From the NCBI GenBank assembly GCA_938015525.1, contig CALLPC010000025.1, forward strand, positions 28,340-92,339: a stretch of DNA of 64,000 bases. The letters are read 5' to 3'. Origin of the DNA: an uncultured Dehalococcoidia bacterium. Its GTDB lineage: Bacteria > Chloroflexota > Dehalococcoidia > Tepidiformales > Tepidiformaceae. The notes below the pieces were generated by a model. That model worked only from the letters and a program-made list of their open reading frames with translations. It made no database searches and was not told the DNA's origin. Shown piece by piece: positions 2,060 to 18,976 of the stretch; position 1 is the stretch's first letter; each line of letters opens with the position of its first letter. Both the position numbers and the translations under genes were made by a program.

Positions 2060-3076
2060 CTACCGGCGCGCGAGCCGCTCCCCATACTGGCGCTCGAAAT
2101 ACCGCCCGAAATCTCCGCTCGCGGTCCGCGACCACCGTTCACCATGCTCCCGATACCACGCCACCGTCTCGGCCAGCCCTTCCCGGAACGGCACCCGCGG
2201 CTGCCATCCCCGTGCCCGCAGCCGTGAACTGTCGAGCGCATACCGCCGGTCGTGCCCCGGCCGGTCCGCAACCGGCGTGATGAGCTCCCGCGGCCGTTCC
2301 AGCAGCTCGCAAATCAGCTCCGCGGTCTCCCGGTTCCGCACCCGCTCCCCGCTCCCGATGTGCACCGCATGCACCCCCGGTTCCCCCGGCAGCTCCCGCA
2401 GCACCACCCGCAGCGCCTCCACGAAATCCCCAGCGTACAGCCACTCCCGCTCCTGCAGCCCATCGCCGTAGAGCGGCATCGGCTCCCCCGCCAGCGCCCG
2501 CATCGTGAACAGCGGGATGAACTTCTCCAGGTGCTGGTTCGGCCCGTAAACGTTGCAGCACCGCAGTACCGTCACCGCCATCCCGTACGTCTCCGCGTAC
2601 GCCCGCGCCATCAGCTCCGCCGCCGCCTTACTCGCCGCATACGGCGAGCTCGGCGCGAACGGCGCATCCTCGGCCGCTTCGCCCGGCGCCGGGATGCTCC
2701 CGAACACCTCGTCCGTCGACATATGCACGAACGCCACACCTGGACGCTCCCGCGCTGCCTCCAGCAGCGTCACCACCCCCTCCACATCCGTCCGGACGAA
2801 CACCCCCGGCTCCAGCAGTGAACGGTCGACGTGCGTCTCCGCCGCGAAATTCAGCACGAGGTCCGTCCCGTCCATCAGCTCCCGTACGAGCACCGGGTCA
2901 CAGATGTCCCCCTGCACGAAACGGTAGCGCGGGTGGCCTTCCGCCTCCGCGAGGTTCCCCGGGTTCGCCGCATACGTCAGCTTGTCGAGATTCGTCACCT
3001 CCCACCCGTCCGCCAGCAGCCCCCGCACCACGTGGCTCCCGATGAACCCGCACCCGCCCGTAACCAGCGCCCTCAT
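2060..3076 (-). CDS. rfbB: dTDP-glucose 4,6-dehydratase (NAD-dependent epimerase/dehydratase family)
   Basis: MRALVTGGCGFIGSH Rossmann motif. YAASKAAAE carries the YxxxK catalytic motif. Its ATG overlaps the stop of the upstream nucleotidyltransferase gene (ATGA). Confidence 0.9.
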   Translation of the reverse strand: MRALVTGGCGFIGSHVVRGLLADGWEVTNLDKLTYAANPGNLAEAEGHPRYRFVQGDICDPVLVRELMDGTDLVLNFAAETHVDRSLLEPGVFVRTDVEGVVTLLEAARERPGVAFVHMSTDEVFGSIPAPGEAAEDAPFAPSSPYAASKAAAELMARAYAETYGMAVTVLRCCNVYGPNQHLEKFIPLFTMRALAGEPMPLYGDGLQEREWLYAGDFVEALRVVLRELPGEPGVHAVHIGSGERVRNRETAELICELLERPRELITPVADRPGHDRRYALDSSRLRARGWQPRVPFREGLAETVAWYREHGERWSRTASGDFGRYFERQYGERLARR

Positions 3077-4131
3077 CCCTCCCGCTCCACCCGCGAATGG
3101 TCACCCAGCGTCAGCCTCGCCCCCGCCGGCGCCCCCGCCACCCGCACGTGCCGCCCCAGCATCGAATGCGCGATCCCCGGGCAGTCCTCCACCGCACTGT
3201 CGCTCATCACAATCGCGTCCTCCACCGCGCTCCGCACCACCCGCGACCGTTCACCGACAGCCGCGAAAGGCCCCACGCGGCTCTCCACGACCTCTGCCCC
3301 CGCCCCGATGACCGCCGGGCCGATGACCTCGCTCGCCACCACCCGGGCGCCCGCTTCTATCACCACCGCGCCTTCGACGCGGCTGTCCGCGACGACCGCC
3401 CCGGGCGCCACCTGCCGCTCCACCGTGCCCAGCAGCAGCCGGTTCGCCGCGAGGATGTCCTCCATCTTCCCCGTGTCGATCCACTCCCGGGGCGTTACCT
3501 CCACCTCGACCCGGCAGCCCCGCGCCAGCAAACCGTTGATCGCGTCCGCAATCTCCAGCTCCCCCCGCGCGCTTGGCCGCTGCCCCGCGATCACCTCGAA
3601 CACCACCGGCCGGAACGCATACACCCCGATGACGGCCAGGTTCGATGGCGGCTCCGCCGGCTTCTCGACCACCTCGGCCAGCCGCTCACCCTCCATCCGC
3701 GCCACCCCGAACGCCCGCGGGTCCTCCACCTCCCGCAGGATGACCGCCCCGTCCGCGCCGCTCTGGGCAAACCGCTCGACGAACCCGGCGATGCCACCCA
3801 TCAGCACGTTGTCCCCCAGGTAGAGCACGAAGGGCTCCTCCCCCACGAACTCCCGGCACACCAGCGCGCCGTGCGCGATGCCCAGCGGTGCCTCCTGCCG
3901 CACGTACGTGAACCGTACCCCGAACGCACTCCCATCGCCCATCGCCTCCCGCACCTGCGCCTCCGTGTCGCCTACCACGAGTGCAATCTCCCGCACCCCC
4001 GCCTCCGCCAGCTGCCGCACCGGAAAGTGCAGCACCGGCGTATTCGCAACCGGCACCAGCTGCTTCGCCCCCGAGTACGTGAACGGCCGGAGCCGGCTCC
4101 CTTTGCCGCCCGCCAGCACGATGCCCTTCAT
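3073..4131 (-). CDS. rfbA: glucose-1-phosphate thymidylyl/nucleotidyltransferase, long form with C-terminal left-handed beta-helix
   Basis: MKGIVLAGGKGSRLRPFTYSGAKQLVPV is the sugar-nucleotidyltransferase signature. The C-terminal third contains hexapeptide-like repeats. Confidence 0.85.
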   Translation of the reverse strand: MKGIVLAGGKGSRLRPFTYSGAKQLVPVANTPVLHFPVRQLAEAGVREIALVVGDTEAQVREAMGDGSAFGVRFTYVRQEAPLGIAHGALVCREFVGEEPFVLYLGDNVLMGGIAGFVERFAQSGADGAVILREVEDPRAFGVARMEGERLAEVVEKPAEPPSNLAVIGVYAFRPVVFEVIAGQRPSARGELEIADAINGLLARGCRVEVEVTPREWIDTGKMEDILAANRLLLGTVERQVAPGAVVADSRVEGAVVIEAGARVVASEVIGPAVIGAGAEVVESRVGPFAAVGERSRVVRSAVEDAIVMSDSAVEDCPGIAHSMLGRHVRVAGAPAGARLTLGDHSRVEREG

Positions 4132-4139
4132 CCCCGCGG

Positions 4140-4145
4140 ATTATA
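4140..4145 (-). promoter_or_regulatory. consensus -10 box TATAAT, 8 nt upstream of the rfbA ATG (leaderless-type)
   Basis: The reverse complement of attata at 4140-4145 is TATAAT. It is followed by ccgcgggg and then ATG (4131-4129). Confidence 0.5.
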
Positions 4146-4159
4146 GGCAGCTGTCCCCC

Positions 4160-4165
4160 TAAAAT
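4160..4165 (+). promoter_or_regulatory. -10-like hexamer TAAAAT, 6 nt upstream of the GT4 GTG start (leaderless-type)
   Basis: TAAAAT-cgcccg-GTG(4172) read from the sequence. It is an AT-rich hexamer in otherwise GC-rich DNA. Confidence 0.45.
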
Positions 4166-4171
4166 CGCCCG

Positions 4172-5272
4172 GTGCCGAACGTGATTCACGTGGCCCTGGA
4201 TGCCTCCAGCCTCCCCGCCCGCCCTGCCGGCGCCGGCGTCTACATGCTCGAGCTCGCTGCAGCACTCGCCGCCCGGCCCTCCCTCCGGGTCACTGCCTTC
4301 GCCCCCCGGCCCCTCCCGGGCTGCTCCCACCGGCCCCTGTCAGCCGGCTCCCCGGCCCGCCGCTTCGCCTGGCAGCTCCGCTCCCTCGGCCCTGCCGTCG
4401 CCGCATCCGGCGCTCACCTCCTCCACGGCCTCCACTTCTATACCCCCCGCCGCCTCCCGGTCCCCGTCGTTACCACCATCCACGACCTCACCTTCTTCCG
4501 CCTTCCCCGCCGGTACGGGCTCGCACACCGCTGGTACTATCGCCTCATCGCCCACACCGCCCGCTTCGCGGACCGCGTCATCGTCCCCTCCTCAGCCGTC
4601 GCGCACGATGCCGTCCGCTACCTCGGCCTCCACGCTGAGAGGCTCCGCGTCATCCCCGAGGCACCCCGCGCAGGTCTCCGCGCCGCCGACCCCGCCCGCG
4701 TCGCCGCCGCCCGGTCGAAATACCGCCTTGGCGATGCCCCCTACTTCCTCTGCCTCGGCACCGCCGAGCCCGGCAAGCGCGCCGTCGATGCCGTCCGCGC
4801 CCTCCCGGCCATCCGCGAGCGCCACCCCGCCGCCCTCCTCGCCCTCGCCGGGAACCCCGGCCCGCTCCTCCGCCCCCTCCAGCGCGAAGCCGCCCGTCTC
4901 GGCGTCGCCCATGCCGTTCGCTGGCTCGGCTACCTCCCCGATGCCGACCTCCCCGCCCTCCTCACCGGCGCGGCAGCCCTCATCTTCCCCTCCCTCTTCG
5001 AAGGTTTCGGCCTCCCCCCGCTCGAGGCGATGGCCTGCGGCACCCCTGTCATCGCCGCGGACACCCCCGCCATGTCCGAATACCTCGCCGGCGTCGCCCT
5101 TTTCGTCCCGCTCCGCGCACCCGAAGCCATCGCCGCCCAGGCCACGCGCCTGCTCGCCGACCCTCCCTTCCGGGCCGACCTCGCGCATCGTTCCCTCCAG
5201 CACGCGGCCCGCTTCTCCTGGGCCAGCGCCGCCGACCTCACCGAATCCGTCTACCGCGAGCTCCTCCCGTGA
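4172..5272 (+). CDS. glycosyltransferase family 4 (GT-B, GT1/GT4 type)
   Basis: C-terminal FPSLFEGFGLPPLEAMACGTPVIA is the EX7E-type GT4 motif. 366 aa. Confidence 0.85.
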   Translation: MPNVIHVALDASSLPARPAGAGVYMLELAAALAARPSLRVTAFAPRPLPGCSHRPLSAGSPARRFAWQLRSLGPAVAASGAHLLHGLHFYTPRRLPVPVVTTIHDLTFFRLPRRYGLAHRWYYRLIAHTARFADRVIVPSSAVAHDAVRYLGLHAERLRVIPEAPRAGLRAADPARVAAARSKYRLGDAPYFLCLGTAEPGKRAVDAVRALPAIRERHPAALLALAGNPGPLLRPLQREAARLGVAHAVRWLGYLPDADLPALLTGAAALIFPSLFEGFGLPPLEAMACGTPVIAADTPAMSEYLAGVALFVPLRAPEAIAAQATRLLADPPFRADLAHRSLQHAARFSWASAADLTESVYRELLP

Positions 5273-6159
5273 CCATCGGCGTTGTCATCGTCACCTTCCG
5301 CTGCCGCGACCTCGCCCTCGCCGCCCTCCGCTCAATCGAAGCGCACGCCCCATCCCTCCTCGCCGCAACCGTCGTCGTCGATAACGCCTCCTTCGATGGC
5401 ACCGTCGAAGCCATCCGCGAAGCCTTCCCTCCCGTCCGGGTCATCGAACACCGCCGCAACCTCGGCTTCGCCGCCGCCGCCAACCGCGGCATCGCCGCCC
5501 TCCCCGGCGCCGACGTCATCTGCCTCCTCAACCCCGATGCCGAGCTCCTCGATGACGGCATCTTTGCCGCCGCCCGCTACCTCCAGGACCACCCCGCCGT
5601 CGGCGTCCTCGGCGGCCGAATCCTCAACACGGATGGCACCATCCAGCCCTCCGCCCGCGCCTTCCCCTCCCACACCAACGCCCTCTTCAACCGCCACTCC
5701 CTCCTCACGAAGCTCTTCCCCAACAACCGCTGGTCCCGCCGCTACCTCATGACCGACTGGGACCACGACGACATCCGCCCCGTCGACTGGGTCTCCGGCG
5801 CCTTCATGCTCATCCACCGCCGCGCACTCGACGCCGCCGGGGCATTCGACCCCGCCTACTTCTTCTCCATCGAAGACGTCGATTTCTGCCGCCGCGTCCA
5901 CGCAGCCGGCCTCGAGGTCCGATACTTCCCCGCCGCCACCGTCCGGCACCGCGTCGGCGGCAGCTCACGCAAAGCCGTCTACCGCGCGATGGCCGGCCAC
6001 CACCGCGGCATGTGGCGCTACTACCGGAAGCATTTCCGCGGCAACCCGCCGCTCCACACCATCACTGCCGTCGGGATCGGCCTCCGCTTCGCCCTCCACG
6101 CCGTCTCCTACACCTTCCGCGCCACCCGTGCCCGCCTCCTCCGCCGTGAAACCCCCTGA
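5269..6159 (+). CDS. glycosyltransferase family 2
   Basis: VVIVTFRCRDLALAALRSIE...VVVDNASFDGT is a GT-A N-terminal signature. Its start overlaps the GT4 stop (GTGA). Confidence 0.85.
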   Translation: MTIGVVIVTFRCRDLALAALRSIEAHAPSLLAATVVVDNASFDGTVEAIREAFPPVRVIEHRRNLGFAAAANRGIAALPGADVICLLNPDAELLDDGIFAAARYLQDHPAVGVLGGRILNTDGTIQPSARAFPSHTNALFNRHSLLTKLFPNNRWSRRYLMTDWDHDDIRPVDWVSGAFMLIHRRALDAAGAFDPAYFFSIEDVDFCRRVHAAGLEVRYFPAATVRHRVGGSSRKAVYRAMAGHHRGMWRYYRKHFRGNPPLHTITAVGIGLRFALHAVSYTFRATRARLLRRETP

Positions 6160-6162
6160 CCA

Positions 6163-9989: not shown

Positions 9990-11330
9990 CTACGCCGCCC
10001 TCTTCACCACCTCGTCCGCGCGTTTCACCACCGTCAGCACGTACTCCCGCGTCGCCGTCACCGGGTCTTTCGTCCGCCACTGATGCGCCTCCGTAATCAC
10101 CGTCAGCGTCCCCGCAAACCGCATCCAGAACAGCAGGTACCGGTACGCCGGCATGAACGGCACCACCCACCAACCCCGCCACAGCCGCCGCGCGCTTGGG
10201 TGAACGACCAGCAGCGCGCTCGTCGTCCACGTCGCCGCCTCGATGACGAAATACGCCAGGTACAGCGCCACCCCCGCACCGAGCACCGTCGCCCACGAGT
10301 ACCCGAAGAACACCAGCCCCGGCATCAGGAACGTCCACGCCACCCGCGGAAACGCCAGCGTATGGTCCACCAGCAGCGTCCGCACCGGCGCGAACCCCTT
10401 GTAGAACAGCCCCCGCCGCGCCAGCGTCGGATGCGCCGCGATGACCTCCACCTCCCCCCGCTGCCATCGCACCCGCTGCGCATACAGCGCCCGCAAACTC
10501 GGAATCGGCTCCGTATAACACACCGAGCTCGGCACCACCCCCACCTTCTTCCCCGGGAACCGCTCCTGGATCTCGAAGGTCATGAATGTGTCCTCGCCCA
10601 CCGTGCTCGCGTCATACAGGTGCGTCGAAAGTAGCGCCTCCCGCCGGAATGCACTGAACGCACCCGCCAGCGTGAACAGCCGCCGCGACATCGTTTCGAA
10701 CCGCCGCCCGACATTGAACGCGAAGTAGTACTCCTGGAACTCGCACTCGTGCAGCAGCCGCATCCAGCCCCGGTCACCGCTCTCCGGCCGGATCTCCACC
10801 GCTCCCGTCGCCGCCACCAGGTCCTCGTCGTGCTCGAACGCCGCCACCATGTTCGCCACCGCGTCCTCGTGCAGCACCACGTCCGAGTCCACGTTGATGA
10901 TGTACTCCCCCCGCGCGTGGTGAATCCCGACGTTCAGCGCCCACGTCTTCCCCTGGTGAAACGTCGAAAGCCAGTGCATCTGCCCCGGCCACTCCACCTG
11001 CTGCTCCGCGCAGAACACCCGGTACGAGCCGTCCCGGCTCCCGTTGTCGATCGCCAGCACCTCGATCAGCTCGTGCGGGTAGCTCTGCCGCCGGACAGAT
11101 TCCAGGCACGCCCCCAGCGACTGCTCGCTGTTGTACACCGGCACGATCACCGTCACCCGCGGCCACTTCCCCCGCGGCGCCTCCGTCACCGGCCGAATCG
11201 GCAGCCGCTTAGCCCTGCCCAGGACCGTCGCGACCAGGTAGTTGAACGCCTGGTACCCGTCCACCAGGATGGGCACGAACAGCCACACCCCCCAAAACCC
11301 GAGCGCAGGCAGCCACCAGTCCGTCGACAT
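9990..11330 (-). CDS. processive family-2 glycosyltransferase (PgaC/IcaA/cellulose-synthase-like), exosortase-cassette associated
   Basis: VTVIVPVYNSE, DNGSRDGS, a DxD motif (NVDSDV) and QRVRW (QxxRW) are present, with N- and C-terminal TM segments. The ORF was trimmed to the MSTDWW ATG at 11330, 1 nt after the stop of the upstream gene. Confidence 0.85.
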   Translation of the reverse strand: MSTDWWLPALGFWGVWLFVPILVDGYQAFNYLVATVLGRAKRLPIRPVTEAPRGKWPRVTVIVPVYNSEQSLGACLESVRRQSYPHELIEVLAIDNGSRDGSYRVFCAEQQVEWPGQMHWLSTFHQGKTWALNVGIHHARGEYIINVDSDVVLHEDAVANMVAAFEHDEDLVAATGAVEIRPESGDRGWMRLLHECEFQEYYFAFNVGRRFETMSRRLFTLAGAFSAFRREALLSTHLYDASTVGEDTFMTFEIQERFPGKKVGVVPSSVCYTEPIPSLRALYAQRVRWQRGEVEVIAAHPTLARRGLFYKGFAPVRTLLVDHTLAFPRVAWTFLMPGLVFFGYSWATVLGAGVALYLAYFVIEAATWTTSALLVVHPSARRLWRGWWVVPFMPAYRYLLFWMRFAGTLTVITEAHQWRTKDPVTATREYVLTVVKRADEVVKRAA

Positions 11331-11331
11331 C

Positions 11332-11940
11332 TCAGCCCTCCCGCAGCCGCGCGTAGACCACGCGCAGCGTTGGCCGCGTGATCGCCAGCCAGTAAATCCC
11401 AATCGCCAGTCCGAAGAACACCGCCCGCCCGAACACCACGTGCGCGATGTCCAGCCACCCCTGGCCCCCATACGCCACCGCCCCCACGATCACCAGCATC
11501 CGCACCACATTCGCCAGGAACGTCAGCCCCACGGCTCCCAGCAATACCAGCAGCCGCTTCCCTTTCGGCAGGGCCGGGTAGAACACCACCAGCCCCATCA
11601 AAGCCGCCACCTCCAGCAGCCCCGAGCACTCGATCCCGATGCTCAGCCGCGTCCACTCCGCGTGGTGCGGCACGCCGACCACCAGCAGCTCGCCCGCCCG
11701 GTCATCGAACAGCTCCGTCCGGATGCCCAGCAGCCACGAGACCGCGTGCACCGCATGCGCCGTCGCCACCCGCACCCACAGCTCGCCCGGGACCAGCTCC
11801 CGGGCTGCCACCACGACCAGCACCGCCCCGCCGGCCGCCCCGAGGAGGAAGTACGGCAGCCACGCCCCCGCCCTCCAGAAAAACCGCACCGCGAGCGCCC
11901 ACGCAACCGCAGCCGGCACGAACCACGCGAGCGTCGTCAT
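11332..11940 (-). CDS. exosortase/archaeosortase-family transmembrane transpeptidase, short XrtG-like form (~202 aa)
   Basis: About six predicted TM segments. Family catalytic motifs are present: IGIECSGL (Cys), ANVVRM (Arg) and DIAHVVFG (His). Its ATG at 11940 overlaps the stop of the upstream gene (ATGA). Confidence 0.8.
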
Positions 11941-13430
11941 TCCGCCTGCCCGGCCTTCCGGTTTACCCACCACGCCGTGCCGACCGCGAACGTCCCGAAC
12001 AGCCCGAGTAGCAGCCAGCCCATCGTCGGCGCGCCCGAGCACCTGTACGTCACCGTCAGCGACTGCCGCGGCCCGTCATCGAGCCCCCACTCGACCGTGT
12101 TCGTCACCTCGCACTTCTCCGGCGTCCCCTCGAACGTCTGCTCCACCAGGAAGTACTGCCCCGGCGCCGTCGCGTAGAACTTCCCGTACCCGCCACTCGC
12201 GAGGTCGCCGCACGCCGCCCCGTTGAACTCCGCGCAGCTCGAGGCGTTCGCGTCCCACACCATCAAGTCCGCCGCCACCGACGGCTCAATCCGCCACACC
12301 ACCACCCCCTCCTTCTCCTCCACAAAGCTCTTCTTCACCTCCACCTTCACCGGCAGGTCCGGCTTCTTGTTGTACGCGCAGAGGTGGTACGTCACCCCCC
12401 GCTTGAGGACATCAGGCACCGAGACCTTCGCCGCCAGGTTCCCGCCCTTCGGCTTCTCCGGGCACGACTTCGCCCCAGAGTTCGAATTCGCGTCCGCGTT
12501 CGCCGGTACCAGGTCGAACAGCAGCAGGTTCGGTCCGCCCGTCGCCGGGTCGAGCTCGGTGACGAGGTAATCCCCGGGCTTCAGCGGTACCACCTCTCCA
12601 TCGACGAACTTCTGAATCCCCGTGTTGTTCCCGTCTGCCAGCAGGAAGACCCACTCCCCCGCCGGCGTCGCCGGCACCCACCGCCCCTTCCCATCCAGCA
12701 CGAACTTGTGCACCACCACCGCCGCGCCCGGCTCCTGCGGTTCGACCGTCGCCGTCACGGCCGGCTTCGTCTCGACCGGCTTGGTGGCGACATCCGTCGC
12801 CGTCTCGACCGGCTTCGGCGGCTCCATCGCCTTCGGCGGCGTCCCGTCCCACGTGTACAGGATGCAGTACGCCTCCGTCCCCGGCGCCAGCGCCAGTGCG
12901 TTCCACCCGACGCCGTCGCCGTTGTCGTTGTTCGCCCCGTCCCGGTAGCACTGCAGGTCGATGAACGGCAGCGGCGCCGCCGTCACCACCGTCGTCGGGA
13001 AATCCACCACCGAGAGCCGCCGCGTTTGGGCCTGCCCCGCCGGCACGTACACCGTCTGCCCCGTCCCGATCACCGTCGCGCTCCCGTCATACCCCGTCGC
13101 CGAGCTCGACCGCACCACCGGCTGCGTCAGTCCCGGGTCCAGGAACACGGAGTCCTTCGTCGAGCTCCCCAGCAGGAACAGCCCCTTCGCGGCCGTCGGC
13201 ACGCACCCGTACGCCCCGATGTCCGATGGCACCGCCTCGGCCGTCCCGTTGTCGCTCGACTTCGGGTCCTTCCCCGCCAGCCGCGCCTGGTAGATCGCGC
13301 TCTCCCCGGGGCAGCTCGCCGCCAGGAACGTCAATGTCGCGTAAGCCGGGACCGCAGCCTCCGCCGTACCCCGCCCGGACCCGCCAAACGCCAGGACAGC
13401 CACGACCAGCGCCAGACCTGCCCGCTTCAT
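11937..13430 (-). CDS. secreted surface protein with two prealbumin/Cna-B-like modules and a C-terminal sorting-type signal (candidate exosortase substrate)
   Basis: N-terminal signal peptide [17 protein letters not shown]...AEAA. Pro/Thr linker with a KPVET duplication. G-x-Y-x-V-x-E-type strands ([20 protein letters not shown]). The C-terminus is [33 protein letters not shown], that is a short motif, a TM helix and a basic tail. Confidence 0.75.
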
Positions 13431-13909
13431 GCTGCATCACTCCATCCTTCGACCGTCACCGAAACGGTCGGGTTCTCCCACAGCGTCACGCTCACCAGCC
13501 TCGGCCCGCCCGGCATCTCCTCGAGCAGCCGCGCCTCCAGGCTCCGGTAAATCACCGATGCCAGGTTCTCCCCCGTCGGCTGCACCTCCGTGAACGGGTA
13601 CATCTCGTTCAGGAACCGGTTCGCAAACCGCTTCGCCTCAGCCTCCAGCAGGTTCGCCACCTCCCGGAAGCCCACCACCATCCCCTGCTCGTCCACCCCA
13701 TCCGTCACGAACACCGCCTGCACCCGGTACGAGTGCGTGTGCTTCGCCCCGTTCGGCCGAATCGCATGGGTCGCTCCGAAGAACGAATCGATCGCGAGTC
13801 GGTATCGCAGCCCCGCGGAGAGCGCCCCCTGCACCACCGCGGCATGCTCCTGCTCGTTCTCCGGCATCACCCGCATCGGCGCCGTCGCGTCGCGGTGTCC
13901 TGCAGCCAT
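13427..13909 (-). CDS. 6-pyruvoyl-tetrahydropterin synthase / QueD-family protein
   Basis: [21 protein letters not shown] carries the His-rich Zn-site pattern of PTPS/QueD. The start was set at the ATG with SD GAGGTG 6 nt upstream (the ORF track starts at a TTG at 13948). The stop overlaps the next gene start (ATGA). Confidence 0.7.
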
Positions 13910-17255: not shown

Positions 17256-18422
17256 CTACCACCGCTGCCCCGGCGGCGGCGGCACCGCCGGCTCCGCCCG
17301 CGTCATGTGCGCTGCCGAGGCCCCCGCCCGCCACGGCCAGCTCCCTTCGCCCGGCGCGAACGCCCCCGCGCCCCGGGCTGCCACCGCCTCCGCCATCCCC
17401 AGCGCCCGCCGCGCCCCCGCGACGTCGTGCACCCGAAAAATCCGAACCCCCTGCGCGAACGCCAGCGCGCTCACCGCGTGCGTCTCCAGGTCCCGCTCCG
17501 CTGGTGCCAGCCCGCCCACGCTCCCGATGAAATTCTTCCGCGAATGCGCCAGCAAAACCGGGAGCCCGAACGTCCCCAGCTCCCCAATCCGCCGCACCAT
17601 CTGCAGGTCCTCGTCGTGGCTCTTCCCGAACGCAATCCCCGGGTCGACCGCCACCTGCTCCCGCTGGAGCCCGGCCTCCCACAGCTTCTCGAGCCGCTGC
17701 TCCATCCACCCCACCGTCTCGACCACCACGTCCCCGTAGACCGGGGGAGCATCCGGCCGCCGCTTCGGCACCGAGTAGCTGTAATTCAGCACGTACCCGG
17801 CCCCGGCAGCAGCCGCCGCCTCCGCAGCGCTCGTCCCCAGCGTCAGCCCGCTGATGTCGTTCACCAGCTCCGCACCGGCCGCCAGCGCCGCCCGCGCTAC
17901 CACCGGCTTATATGTATCACTCGAAACCACGTGCCCCTCCCGCGCCAGCGCAGCGACCGCCGCCCCCACCACCTCCGCCTCCTCCTCCGGGTCGAGCACC
18001 GGCCGGTCCGCCCGCGCGCTCTCCGCCCCGACGTCGATGATGTCCGCCCCTGCCGCCCGCAGCCGCTCCGCCGCCGCGCAAGCCGCCCCCACGTCCCGCC
18101 CCACCCCGTCGCCCGAGAACGAATCCTCCGTCAGGTTCAGGATGCCCATGATGACCGGCCGATCGAGGGGCAGCTCTCGCGTCCGCAGCCGCCACGCCTG
18201 CACCGGTGCGAGGTACGCCCGGAGCCGGGCAGCATGCGGTGACCCCTGCTCCCCGAGCGCCTCAGCCAGCCGCCCGATCATCGACCGCGAAGCCCACACC
18301 ACCGCCTCGCCCGGCTCGCGCAGGTCGATGCCAAGCCCGAGCCGACTCGTCGCTACCTGCAGCCGCTCCCGGTCGCCCGAAAAGTGCACCGCGTACGGCG
18401 CCTCTGGTTCCGCCGCCGCCAT
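17256..18422 (-). CDS. folP: dihydropteroate synthase with ~95-aa N-terminal extension
   Basis: IMGILNLTEDSFSGDG, DIIDVGAES and HSRKNFIG are DHPS (pterin-binding) motifs. The start is uncertain: ATG at 18422 is chosen, while the ORF track extends to 18506, overlapping the DinB-family gene. Confidence 0.85.
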   Translation of the reverse strand: MAAAEPEAPYAVHFSGDRERLQVATSRLGLGIDLREPGEAVVWASRSMIGRLAEALGEQGSPHAARLRAYLAPVQAWRLRTRELPLDRPVIMGILNLTEDSFSGDGVGRDVGAACAAAERLRAAGADIIDVGAESARADRPVLDPEEEAEVVGAAVAALAREGHVVSSDTYKPVVARAALAAGAELVNDISGLTLGTSAAEAAAAAGAGYVLNYSYSVPKRRPDAPPVYGDVVVETVGWMEQRLEKLWEAGLQREQVAVDPGIAFGKSHDEDLQMVRRIGELGTFGLPVLLAHSRKNFIGSVGGLAPAERDLETHAVSALAFAQGVRIFRVHDVAGARRALGMAEAVAARGAGAFAPGEGSWPWRAGASAAHMTRAEPAVPPPPGQRW

Positions 18423-18457
18423 GCCGTATCCCGGCGGCACGACCCGCAGCGTCGGCC

Positions 18458-18976
18458 TCAACCGCCTCGCCCCGCCAGCCCATCGAGCATCCGCCGGACC
18501 TGCCAAAGGTGCTCCAGGTCATGCTGATACGTCTCCCGCGCAATCTCCATGATCGACACCTCGCCCCGGTACGGGTGCACTCCCTTCCGCTCCCAGTCGC
18601 GCTCCGAAAGGTCCCACAGCAGATACGTCGTCCGCCGCCGCAGGAAGTGGAGCTCTTCCAGCAGCAGCTCCACATCGGCCTCCGCATAATCGGCCTCGAA
18701 CGGGATGTCGTCGAAGTCCACGTGCGGCACTTCCGGCATCCCCCGGCCCCGGCTCATGGCGATGATGGCCGTCTGCTCCTGCACTCCGCGTTCCACCTGC
18801 ACCAGGTGGAACGGTACCGCCAGCAGGCACCACCCCTCATCCGGCCACGCCGCCGGCCGCAGCAGGTCCCGCTCCCGGACGCCCTCGAACGCCCGTGCCA
18901 GCTCCCCCGACGCCTCCCCGAGCGCCTTCAGCAAAAACGAAGGGTCGCTCCCCGCCGCCGCTGGCACGTAACGCAC
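18458..18976 (-). CDS. DinB-family (four-helix-bundle, metal-binding) protein
   Basis: His-containing helices (VPFHLVQVE, YQHDLEHLWQVRRM) and a size of 172 aa are typical of the DinB/YfiT superfamily. Confidence 0.7.
   Translation of the reverse strand: MRYVPAAAGSDPSFLLKALGEASGELARAFEGVRERDLLRPAAWPDEGWCLLAVPFHLVQVERGVQEQTAIIAMSRGRGMPEVPHVDFDDIPFEADYAEADVELLLEELHFLRRRTTYLLWDLSERDWERKGVHPYRGEVSIMEIARETYQHDLEHLWQVRRMLDGLAGRGG

What the first reader, a model, noticed from the sequence alone, without database searches (positions are those of the whole stretch)
9990..13909. XrtG-type exosortase cassette (PTPS homologue - candidate substrate - short exosortase - processive GT2) in a high-GC genome
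Four tightly coupled - strand genes (ATGA overlaps at 13427/13430 and 11937/11940, and a 1-nt gap at 11330/11332) encode the following:
- A 6-pyruvoyl-tetrahydropterin-synthase/QueD homologue (GATHAI...KHTHSY).
- A 497-aa secreted protein with a C-terminal TM-plus-basic tail.
- A ~202-aa polytopic protein with the exosortase/archaeosortase catalytic motifs IGIECSGL (Cys), ANVVRM (Arg) and DIAHVVFG (His).
- A 446-aa processive GT2 synthase (DxD, QRVRW).

As I recall, the trio of short exosortase homologue, GT2 and PTPS homologue is the neighbourhood described for XrtG in Gram-positive Firmicutes (TIGR03110/03111/03112, plus an integral membrane protein TIGR03766). In that system neither a sorting signal nor a substrate has been defined, to my knowledge.

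Here the cassette sits in a very different, high-GC background. Instead of the extra polytopic membrane protein, it has a gene with exactly the architecture expected of an exosortase substrate inserted between the PTPS and Xrt genes. That would make this locus a self-contained sortase, substrate and glycan-synthase system in which the target and possibly the attached polymer could be worked out.
Basis: partly seen in the sequence, partly recalled or inferred. Interest (0 to 1): 0.8.

Follow-up and report, generated by a model that had tools for sequence, protein, structure and literature searches.

The report
XrtG-type exosortase cassette in Tepidiforma
This is a four-gene [quoted passage not shown] cassette of a database-described but never experimentally tested kind (XrtG), found here in a heat-loving Chloroflexota bacterium in a stripped-down form whose target protein and sorting tail current family models do not recognise.

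Summary
Four translationally coupled minus-strand genes encode a PTPS-like protein, a 497-aa secreted protein with a motif/TM/basic tail, a 202-aa exosortase homologue and a 446-aa GT2.

The XrtG interpretation holds:
- GT2 passes the curated XrtG-associated model TIGR03111.
- XrtG (TIGR03110) is the best hit for the Xrt, but below cut-off.

- XrtG already has a named cognate substrate family, Firmicu-CTERM (TIGR04145).
- All five Firmicutes XrtG loci I fetched show the same order: PTPS, CTERM protein, XrtG, GT2.

What is new:
- The cassette is widespread in Chloroflexota (64 species-level loci; the window is a Tepidiforma).
- The upstream protein almost always ends in a related tail (CSGAPTMGW or WSPANALGW) that no NCBIfam sorting model detects.
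- The Tepidiformales passenger is unrelated to Firmicu-CTERM proteins.
- The PF10131 membrane partner is missing from this clade's loci.
- The presumed nucleophile is Ser instead of Cys in half the loci. Ser never pairs with a Pro in the tail motif.
- Substrate::Xrt fusion proteins exist.

Verdict: a new variant of a known kind, of moderate interest.

The parts
13427..13909 (-). PTPS/QueD-fold protein (160 aa), first gene of the cassette. The Zn-binding His triad (H49, H60, H62 in GATHAI...KHTHSY) and the Glu of LWEN are retained. The Asp-His of the DH(H/R)xLN motif is replaced by A-N (ANRFLN).
   Evidence: PF01242 69.8 bits. TIGR03112 38.2 bits (below cut-off 69.35). TIGR03367 39.9 bits. Alignment to PH0634, PDB 2dj6. 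ATG at 13909 preceded by GAGGTGA.
11937..13430 (-). 497-aa secreted candidate substrate. It comprises a signal peptide (res 1-25), an N-terminal domain (~26-195), a Pro/Thr/Lys linker with an 81-nt repeat unit (~196-235), an Ig/prealbumin-like middle domain, a conserved four-Cys C-terminal domain (~365-464) and a sorting tail.
   Evidence: No Pfam or NCBIfam family. Alignment A5 of 13 orthologues shows the modules and invariant C399, C407, C440 and C464. Weak SpaA_4 and FlgD_ig hits in orthologues. Always immediately upstream of the Xrt.
11940..12041 (-). C-terminal tripartite sorting signal: motif C464-SGAPTMG-W472, TM helix L473-V489, basic cluster N490-R-K492, end at E497.
   Evidence: Only match in the window. 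CSG, G and W are invariant in 16 clade members (A4). It aligns with WSPANALGW tails of other Chloroflexota (A3) and resembles Firmicutes ISGTPTGPW. No NCBIfam sorting model hits it.
11332..11940 (-). 202-aa polytopic exosortase homologue (XrtG-like). The presumed active site is C105 (11626-11628), N144/R147 (R147 at 11500-11502) and H167 (11440-11442)/R172.
   Evidence: TIGR03110 76.1 bits. TIGR04178 55 bits, above cut-off. E104, S106, N144, R147 and H167 are invariant in A1. AF2 model pLDDT 85.5, all-helical plus a small sheet at 75-100.
9990..11330 (-). 446-aa membrane GT2 of the processive beta-glycan synthase type (DxD = DSD, GED, QRVRW; C-terminal TM helices).
   Evidence: TIGR03111 XrtG-associated GT 380.9 bits, above cut-off 363.95. 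Next best hits are PgaC/IcaA at 119 bits and NodC at 68 bits. Pfam GT2 families. Best PDB relatives are 6yv7 and the BcsA structures. Directly downstream of the Xrt in 72 of 74 loci.

Best explanation
This is a dedicated (one enzyme, one target) XrtG-type exosortase system of a Tepidiforma species (Chloroflexota), transcribed as one translationally coupled unit.

Proposed steps:
1. The 497-aa protein is exported by Sec. It stays held in the membrane by its C-terminal helix, with NRK inside and the SGAPTMGW motif at the outer face.
2. The 202-aa Xrt has C105, N144/R147 and H167/R172 all near the outer ends of its helices. It recognises the motif, cleaves there through an acyl-enzyme on C105, and removes the helix.
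3. The acyl intermediate is resolved onto an acceptor. Because a processive GT2 synthase is the invariant neighbour, the most likely acceptor is the glycan it extrudes, or a lipid-linked form of it. The protein would then end up coupled to a cell-surface polysaccharide.
4. The PTPS-fold protein keeps its metal site but lacks the PTPS/QueD catalytic Asp-His, so it is an accessory of unknown chemistry.

Shown here: family assignments, the conserved cassette, the conserved tail, and enzyme/tail co-variation. Inferred: topology, cleavage, transpeptidation, and the acceptor.
For: Family scores: GT2 passes TIGR03111, the Xrt hits TIGR03110 best and passes TIGR04178.

Conservation of the cassette: the same four-gene order is seen in near-identical strains, in distant Dehalococcoidia and in 64 GTDB species loci across Chloroflexota, plus a few Bacillota and one Coriobacteriia.

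The tail behaves as a sorting signal:
- The ORF ending at the Xrt start carries a motif/TM/basic tail in nearly every locus, although the passengers are unrelated. They include the Tepidiformales four-Cys domain, a ~250-aa Firmicu-CTERM-like domain, and a 1730-aa DUF11/SdrD-type protein.
- A metagenome-wide DNA scan for CSGAPTMGW found 7 true hits, all orthologues. Every one with enough downstream sequence is followed by an Xrt.
- Firmicutes XrtG loci have the same order with TIGR04145 proteins. Those tails (ISGTPTGPW) resemble SGAPTMGW.

Enzyme/substrate co-variation: a Cys enzyme pairs with Pro three residues before the motif Gly in 22 of 26 unique pairs. A Ser enzyme does so in 0 of 32. This spans about 6 inferred nucleophile changes.

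Fusions: predicted proteins exist in which passenger plus motif is joined directly to Xrt helix 1. Three of them pass both TIGR04145 and TIGR03110.

Active site: E104, S106, N144, R147 and H167 are invariant. In the homologous archaeosortase ArtA, Cys173, Arg214 and Arg253 are required for activity (PMC9263693).
Against: - No member of the XrtG family has been tested experimentally. Cleavage, transpeptidation and the acceptor are all inference.
- The Xrt and the PTPS-like protein score below the curated XrtG-system cut-offs. The substrate does not hit TIGR04145.
- Half of the homologues carry Ser, and two carry Thr, at the 'catalytic Cys' position, so the chemistry may differ from canonical exosortases.
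- The co-variation is partly confounded by shared ancestry, and the tree is a rough NJ tree.
- The fusions were seen only as predicted proteins, not checked on DNA.
- The substrate structure could not be modelled (pLDDT 41.5).
Confidence: 0.7

Rival explanations
1. The Xrt is only a maturation or release protease. It clips the tail, and water is the acceptor. The 497-aa protein is then shed or joins a surface layer non-covalently. The GT2 makes an independent matrix polysaccharide that the protein merely binds.
For: There is no evidence here for any acceptor. The passengers look like adhesin or Ig-like surface modules. The nucleophile tolerates Ser, as in hydrolytic serine proteases.
Against: The GT2 follows the Xrt in 72 of 74 loci, usually with overlapping or abutting reading frames. 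That is tighter than expected for independent functions. Relatives (sortase-like logic, ArtA) attach their substrates rather than release them (PMC9263693).
Confidence: 0.15
2. After cleavage the protein is lipid-anchored, as archaeosortase A substrates are. The GT2 and the PTPS-like protein build or modify the lipid-linked acceptor rather than a free polymer.
For: ArtA substrates are processed and then lipid-modified (PMC9263693; PMC7157517 listed).
Against: The GT2 has the QxxRW signature. Its nearest named families are the polymer synthases PgaC/IcaA, NodC and BcsA. No PssA/PssD-like genes were seen in the gene lists of the loci that came with called genes (about 16 of the 88 loci); the other loci were not checked for these genes.
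Confidence: 0.1
3. The tail-bearing protein is not a substrate. It is a permanent, C-terminally anchored subunit of the synthase complex (BcsB-like), and the Xrt homologue is a non-catalytic scaffold.
For: Fusion proteins show a stable physical link between passenger and Xrt. Cys is replaced by Ser or Thr in many homologues. BcsB-type partners with one C-terminal helix are known for GT2 synthases (established knowledge).
Against: - Unrelated passengers share only the tail motif, which is the hallmark of a sorting signal.
- E104, S106, N144, R147 and H167 are invariant across about 70 enzymes.
- The nucleophile residue co-varies with a motif residue.
- The window enzyme has the canonical Cys.
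Confidence: 0.05

Closest known systems
XrtG / Firmicu-CTERM system of Firmicutes (NCBIfam TIGR03110, TIGR03111, TIGR03112, TIGR04145; PF10131 partner)
   Same: The gene order PTPS-like, tail-bearing secreted protein, ~200-aa Xrt, ~450-aa GT2 is identical. The GT2 is a member by curated score. XrtG is the best hit for the Xrt over its full length. The tail motif is similar (SG[AT]PT..W). The arrangement is dedicated, with one target next to the enzyme.
   Different: - The host is a high-GC Chloroflexota thermophile.
- The Xrt and PTPS-like protein score below cut-off.
- The passenger is unrelated to the 191-position TIGR04145 domain, so the substrate goes unrecognised.
- There is no second PTPS gene, no PF10131 membrane protein, no second GT2 and no ~365-aa gene in the locus or window.
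- Sister lineages use Ser instead of Cys.
PEP-CTERM / exosortase (EpsH, XrtA) systems of Gram-negative bacteria
   Same: A homologous polytopic enzyme with Cys/Arg/His-type signature (TIGR04178). A tripartite C-terminal signal. Genomic association with polysaccharide production (PMC1569441 listed; PMC3237569).
   Different: Those enzymes have 8 TM helices and typically many substrates per genome, with a PEP motif, in diderm hosts. Here the enzyme is short, with about 5 membrane-spanning helices inferred from the 6-helix model, has one adjacent target with a different motif, and sits in a monoderm-type phylum.
Archaeosortase A / PGF-CTERM (Haloferax volcanii ArtA)
   Same: This is the only experimentally studied relative. 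It carries out C-terminal processing dependent on conserved Cys and Arg residues, followed by covalent anchoring (PMC9263693).
   Different: ArtA is archaeal, has many substrates, uses a lipid acceptor made with PssA/PssD, and has no obligatory GT2 or PTPS neighbour.

Membership tests
XrtG-associated glycosyltransferase (TIGR03111) | Score at or above the curated cut-off of the hypothetical-equivalog model over its full length | tested here: met
   380.9 bits vs 363.95; residues 9-441 on profile positions 6-436 of 439.
XrtG-associated glycosyltransferase (TIGR03111) | Encoded next to an XrtG-type exosortase | tested here: met
   It starts 1 nt after the Xrt stop. It is downstream of the Xrt in 72 of 74 loci.
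Exosortase/archaeosortase superfamily (TIGR04178 signature) | Signature region containing the conserved Cys, Arg and His | tested here: met
   55 bits vs cut-off 23. C105, R147 and H167 align with the invariant or near-invariant columns in A1 and A2.
Exosortase XrtG (TIGR03110) | Score at or above the curated cut-off (102.75 bits) | tested here: not met
   76.1 bits, E = 3e-21, but full length (11-192 on 7-181 of 187) and the best-scoring exosortase subfamily. Related Chloroflexota-like proteins straddle the cut-off, for example P0108 at 103.1. JGI names homologues XrtG, whereas NCBI names them generic archaeosortase/exosortase.
Exosortase XrtG (TIGR03110) | Neighbourhood: PTPS-related gene, tail-bearing target and TIGR03111 GT2 | tested here: met
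   Same order as five Firmicutes XrtG loci.
Firmicu-CTERM sorting-domain protein (TIGR04145) | Match to the 191-position model (passenger domain plus tail), cut-off 50 bits | tested here: not met
   No hit even at E <= 10 for the whole protein, the last 99 aa or the last 40 aa. None of 38 Chloroflexota tails hit it. Positive controls score 141-154 bits. Anaerolineae ~250-aa proteins hit only weakly (12-13 bits).
Firmicu-CTERM sorting-domain protein (TIGR04145) | C-terminal motif + TM + basic cluster, encoded immediately upstream of XrtG, N-terminal signal peptide | tested here: met
   CSGAPTMGW, 17 hydrophobic residues, NRK. ATGA overlap with the Xrt. Signal peptide present. The motif resembles ISGTPTGPW.
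6-pyruvoyl-tetrahydropterin-synthase-related domain (TIGR03112) | Score at or above the curated cut-off (69.35 bits) | tested here: not met
   38.2 bits. The Pfam PTPS fold is clearly met, at 69.8 vs 22.4.
Genuine PTPS/QueD enzymes | Zn His triad plus the catalytic Asp-His dyad and Glu (and, from my own knowledge of the QueD sequence, a catalytic Cys) | tested here: inconclusive
   The His triad and Glu align. The Asp-His of DHxxLN is A-N here, by alignment to PH0634, PDB 2dj6. The Cys position was judged only against E. coli QueD as I remember it, not with a tool.
PF10131 (PTPS_related) membrane partner of XrtG systems | Present in the locus | tested here: not met
   tblastn with three PF10131 proteins gave no hit in the 64-kb window or in any CSG-tail clade locus. 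It is present in 32-35 other loci. A copy elsewhere in the genome cannot be excluded.

The most novel reading that the evidence does not exclude
The XrtG family is a protein-to-glycan conjugation machine of monoderm bacteria whose chemistry can be read from natural variation.
- The scissile region lies around the residue three positions before the motif Gly.
- Cys enzymes accept Pro there. A large Chloroflexota radiation has switched to a Ser nucleophile together with a Pro-free motif.
- In some lineages the substrate is fused to the enzyme and is processed in cis.
- The minimal Tepidiforma cassette (four genes, no PF10131 partner, a thermostable cultured host) would be sufficient on its own to attach the 497-aa protein to the GT2 product.
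Probability: 0.2. Interest if true: 0.75.

Novelty: new variant of a known kind. Interest (0 to 1): 0.5.

Why it matters
Exosortases are very widespread, yet almost nothing is known about what they attach their substrates to. The XrtG subfamily has never been tested experimentally.

This locus does not open that question for the first time, because Firmicutes loci already offer an enzyme, a target and a GT2. It does add several things:
- A minimal four-gene version in a cultured thermophile genus, which favours biochemistry and structure work.
- Evidence that the system spans Chloroflexota, with tails that annotation pipelines miss.
- Natural experiments that point to where and how the enzyme acts: Cys/Ser swaps that track a motif residue, passenger swaps, and substrate-enzyme fusions.

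It also shows that current NCBIfam cut-offs under-call XrtG systems outside Firmicutes.

Tried and rejected
- Tail-profile search of the 5.8-billion-protein database (A4). It says nothing about extra substrates.
The single-sequence model was unusable (pLDDT 41.5).
- Foldseek of the confident Xrt model against the PDB found no significant match, so no solved exosortase fold was detected.
- A profile of substrate orthologues against PDB sequences gave nothing meaningful.
- The Haft 2012 archaeosortase/exosortase paper is not held. Literature searches for XrtG, Firmicu-CTERM and exosortase+Chloroflexi found only one relevant paper.
- The promoter/terminator consensus scan was uninformative in this 70% GC DNA.
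- A long 'fusion' open frame in L037 was rejected as a high-GC or frameshift artefact. The tail and the Xrt there are separate frames.
- L063 was checked and is a genuine two-gene version.
- A weak MYXO-CTERM hit (E about 1) was rejected, because the Cys of CSG is not conserved outside the clade.
- Rfam and tRNA scans of the window were empty.
Full report
**1. Observation**

The four minus-strand ORFs are real:
- PTPS-like, 13427-13909 (160 aa).
- A 497-aa protein, 11937-13430.
- An exosortase homologue, 11332-11940 (202 aa).
- A GT2, 9990-11330 (446 aa).

The junctions read gcATGAag, gaATGAcg and TGA-g-ATG. An RBS-like GAGGTGA precedes the PTPS ATG.

The window is 70% GC. Its Xrt is 92% identical to that of Tepidiforma flava (lineage). 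Identical Xrt proteins occur on several metagenome contigs with the same neighbours.

**2. Family assignment**

Against NCBIfam and Pfam:

| Protein | Model | Score (bits) | Cut-off (bits) |
|---|---|---|---|
| GT2 | TIGR03111, XrtG-associated glycosyltransferase | 380.9 | 363.95 |
| Xrt | TIGR03110, XrtG (best hit, full length) | 76.1 | 102.75 |
| Xrt | TIGR04178, superfamily signature | 55 | 23 |
| PTPS-like | PF01242 | 69.8 | 22.4 |
| PTPS-like | TIGR03112 | 38.2 | 69.35 |

- The 497-aa protein hits nothing.
- The GT2 carries DSD, GED and QRVRW. Its next-best named families are PgaC/IcaA, NodC and cellulose synthase. Its best solved relatives are 6yv7 and BcsA.
- Aligned to the archaeal PTPS homologue PH0634, the PTPS-like protein keeps the His triad and the Glu. 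It has A-N where DH stands in DHxxLN. It is therefore unlikely to be a true PTPS/QueD.

**3. What is already known**

That is wrong.

[quoted passage not shown] It has a Firmicu-CTERM sorting-domain protein, XrtG and two associated glycosyltransferases (PMC12854382).
- I fetched five diverse Firmicutes XrtG loci. All read PTPS (133-155 aa), an unannotated 250-494-aa protein, XrtG, GT2 (459-476 aa).
- In most of them this is followed by a further ~360-aa gene, a second PTPS and a PF10131 'PTPS_related' membrane protein.
- The two upstream proteins that I scanned (from L075 and L077) score 141-154 bits on TIGR04145. The three from L086-L088 were not scanned; I examined only their tails. TIGR04145 is a 191-position model covering a passenger domain plus the tail.

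The gene order in the window is therefore the canonical one.

**4. Distribution**

- The Xrt has 91 close database relatives, mostly from Dehalococcoidia and Tepidiformaceae MAGs. JGI calls them XrtG, while NCBI calls them generic archaeosortase/exosortase.
- A profile search of 1.84 billion representatives finds only 354 proteins at E <= 0.001, so the family is small.
- A scan of one genome per GTDB species found 64 loci. They fall in Tepidiforma, other Dehalococcoidia, Anaerolineae, Ardenticatenia, Herpetosiphonaceae, Oscillochloris, Ktedonobacterales, three Bacillota and one Coriobacteriia.
- Among the 74 loci held at that stage, GT2 lies just downstream of the Xrt in 72. A PTPS homologue lies upstream in 53.

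**5. The tail**

The ORF that ends at the Xrt start carries a C-terminal motif/TM/basic tail in almost every locus. Three motif types occur:
- Tepidiformales and relatives: Y-x-C-S-G-A-[PST]-[TA]-[ML]-G-W, with C, S, G, G and W invariant in 16 sequences.
- Anaerolineae and others: V-Q-W-S-P-A-[ND]-A-L-G-W.
- Bacillota: A-P-V-P-I-L-G (alignment A3).

Firmicutes tails read ISGTPTGPW, IGTPTGAF, SGVSSGPY and AGSSTGPV. SGAPTMGW and SGTPTGPW share 6 of 8 positions.

No NCBIfam sorting-signal model, including TIGR04145, detects any of 38 Chloroflexota tails.

The passengers differ completely:
- The window protein and its orthologues share a signal peptide, an optional N-domain, a hypervariable Pro/Thr linker, an Ig/prealbumin-like domain and a conserved four-Cys domain abutting the tail (A5; weak SpaA_4 and FlgD_ig hits).
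- Anaerolineae proteins are ~250 aa and faintly Firmicu-CTERM-like (E = 0.085 over the whole model).
- The Coriobacteriia one is 1730 aa, with DUF11 and SdrD-type repeats.

A shared suffix on unrelated passengers next to the enzyme is the classic signature of a sorting signal (logic as in PMC3237569).

The tail occurs once in the window. A metagenome-wide DNA scan for CSGAPTMGW returned seven true hits, all orthologues. Each one with enough downstream sequence is followed by an Xrt. The system looks dedicated.

**6. Active site and a Cys/Ser switch**

- E104, S106, G107-E110, N144, R147 and H167 are invariant, and R172 nearly so.
- Position 105, the presumed nucleophile, is Cys in 36 loci, Ser in 36 and Thr in 2.
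- The Firmicutes-type sequences that I aligned (P0164-P0239 in A2) all have Cys there.
- The window enzyme has Cys.

The residue three positions before the motif Gly tracks this. Among unique enzyme/tail pairs, Cys enzymes pair with Pro in 22 of 26. Ser enzymes pair with Pro in 0 of 32, using D, N, S or T instead.

The pattern holds within both the CSG-type and the W-x-P-type tails. On a rough NJ tree, with the nucleophile column left out, Fitch parsimony needs about 6 nucleophile changes. This is suggestive evidence of direct enzyme-motif contact, but shared ancestry inflates it.

The two Thr-type loci have no adjacent substrate.

In ArtA, the only studied relative, Cys173, Arg214 and Arg253 are required for activity (PMC9263693).

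**7. Topology (inference)**

The AF2 model of the Xrt is confident (pLDDT 85.5, pTM 0.78). It has helices at 2-24, 27-49, 52-70, 103-119, 126-158 and 160-201, and a small sheet at 75-100.

With the positive-inside rule (R20/R24, K126-R129, and the C-terminal [12 protein letters not shown]), C105, N144/R147 and H167/R172 all sit toward the outer face. That is where the substrate motif sits, just outside its own helix.

No solved structure resembles the model.

**8. Fusions**

About twenty representative clusters have the Xrt domain at the C-terminus of a longer protein. At the junctions, the passenger and motif run straight into a single TM helix, a basic cluster and the Xrt 'WLxYY' segment. 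An example is ...TQFYSVPALG-AALVAFIAALMAPVLWAL-RRRRR-WLTYYILASFG. Xrt helix 1 thus takes the place of the tail helix.

Three low-GC examples pass both TIGR04145 and TIGR03110 in one polypeptide, with overlapping model ends. These fusions tie passenger and enzyme together physically. I could not check them on DNA. One apparent fusion among my own loci (L037) was an artefact, and L063 is truly two genes.

**9. What differs in this clade**

PF10131 homologues are present in the W-x-P-tail Chloroflexota, Bacillota and Firmicutes loci (32-35 loci). They are absent from all CSG-tail loci and from the 64-kb window.

The Tepidiforma-type cassette is therefore a minimal four-gene version with a replaced passenger.

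**10. Mechanism and verdict**

The best-supported reading has three steps:
1. Sec export of the 497-aa protein.
2. Recognition and cleavage of the [13 protein letters not shown] signal by the Xrt via C105.
3. Transfer to an acceptor, most plausibly the product of the obligatorily linked GT2.

Release by hydrolysis, lipid anchoring and a non-catalytic scaffold role remain as rivals.

The cassette belongs functionally with the XrtG/Firmicu-CTERM system. By curated scores only the GT2 is a formal member.

It is a new variant of a known, uncharacterised kind. The Chloroflexota tails, the Cys/Ser-motif co-variation, the fusions and a cultured thermophilic host still make it a useful entry point.

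Noticed in passing
window 1-64000 (all of it); also L001, L002, L011-L013, L078-L083: Extreme GC skew that does not depend on gene orientation. (G-C)/(G+C) is -0.27 over the whole plus strand, and -0.24 to -0.36 inside every gene whichever strand encodes it. All Tepidiforma loci show |0.20-0.32|. Other Chloroflexota loci with the same cassette are near 0. This is far above usual replication skews.
   Followed up: partly
window 12742-12817 (substrate linker); L001 8229-8403: The Pro/Thr/Lys linker of the substrate holds an 81-nt (27-aa) unit, [18 protein letters not shown].... It is present about once in the window and about twice in otherwise near-identical strains, giving 497 vs 524 aa. Linker length and sequence are hypervariable across orthologues.
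   Followed up: partly
P0098-P0234 (predicted proteins), e.g. P0118, P0110, P0186, P0176, P0213: These are natural substrate::Xrt fusion proteins. Passenger plus sorting motif is joined directly to Xrt helix 1, with only one TM helix between motif and enzyme core. Three pass both Firmicu-CTERM and XrtG models. P0120 and P0122 show the reverse layout: Xrt first, then a TM helix and a long extracytoplasmic region. P0122 ends in its own TM/basic tail.
   Followed up: partly
L009 4428-5036, L010 4957-5565: Two loci have Thr at the nucleophile position (GVETSGLLE). They have no tail-bearing gene upstream. A 263-aa PTPS protein abuts the Xrt instead, preceded by PF10131. This may be a substrate-less or repurposed branch.
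   Followed up: partly
window ~2060-6160 (by correspondence with L001 14972-19071): About 4 kb downstream of the cassette lie a GT2 (296 aa), a GT4 (363 aa), a sugar-1-phosphate nucleotidyltransferase and an NAD-dependent epimerase/dehydratase (Pfam calls). They are possible precursor or glycan genes. They are separated from the cassette by a CoA-transferase, an adenylyltransferase-like gene and an ABC1 kinase. In the gene lists I looked at (L007, L008 and the Firmicutes loci) other genes follow the GT2 instead; this was not tested across the other loci.
   Followed up: no
window 17256-18506 (minus strand): A Pterin_bind (dihydropteroate-synthase-like) gene sits about 3.4 kb upstream of the PTPS-fold gene. 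This is probably coincidence, since the PTPS-like protein lacks the catalytic dyad. Not examined.
   Followed up: no
L028 and L032 substrates (A5 columns ~470-590): Some orthologues carry an extra ~110-aa insert (CVFDHGGGTFTAYFGYENGN...) between the middle and C-terminal domains. A related segment replaces the middle domain in L007. This shows modular shuffling of passenger domains in front of a fixed C-domain and tail.
   Followed up: no
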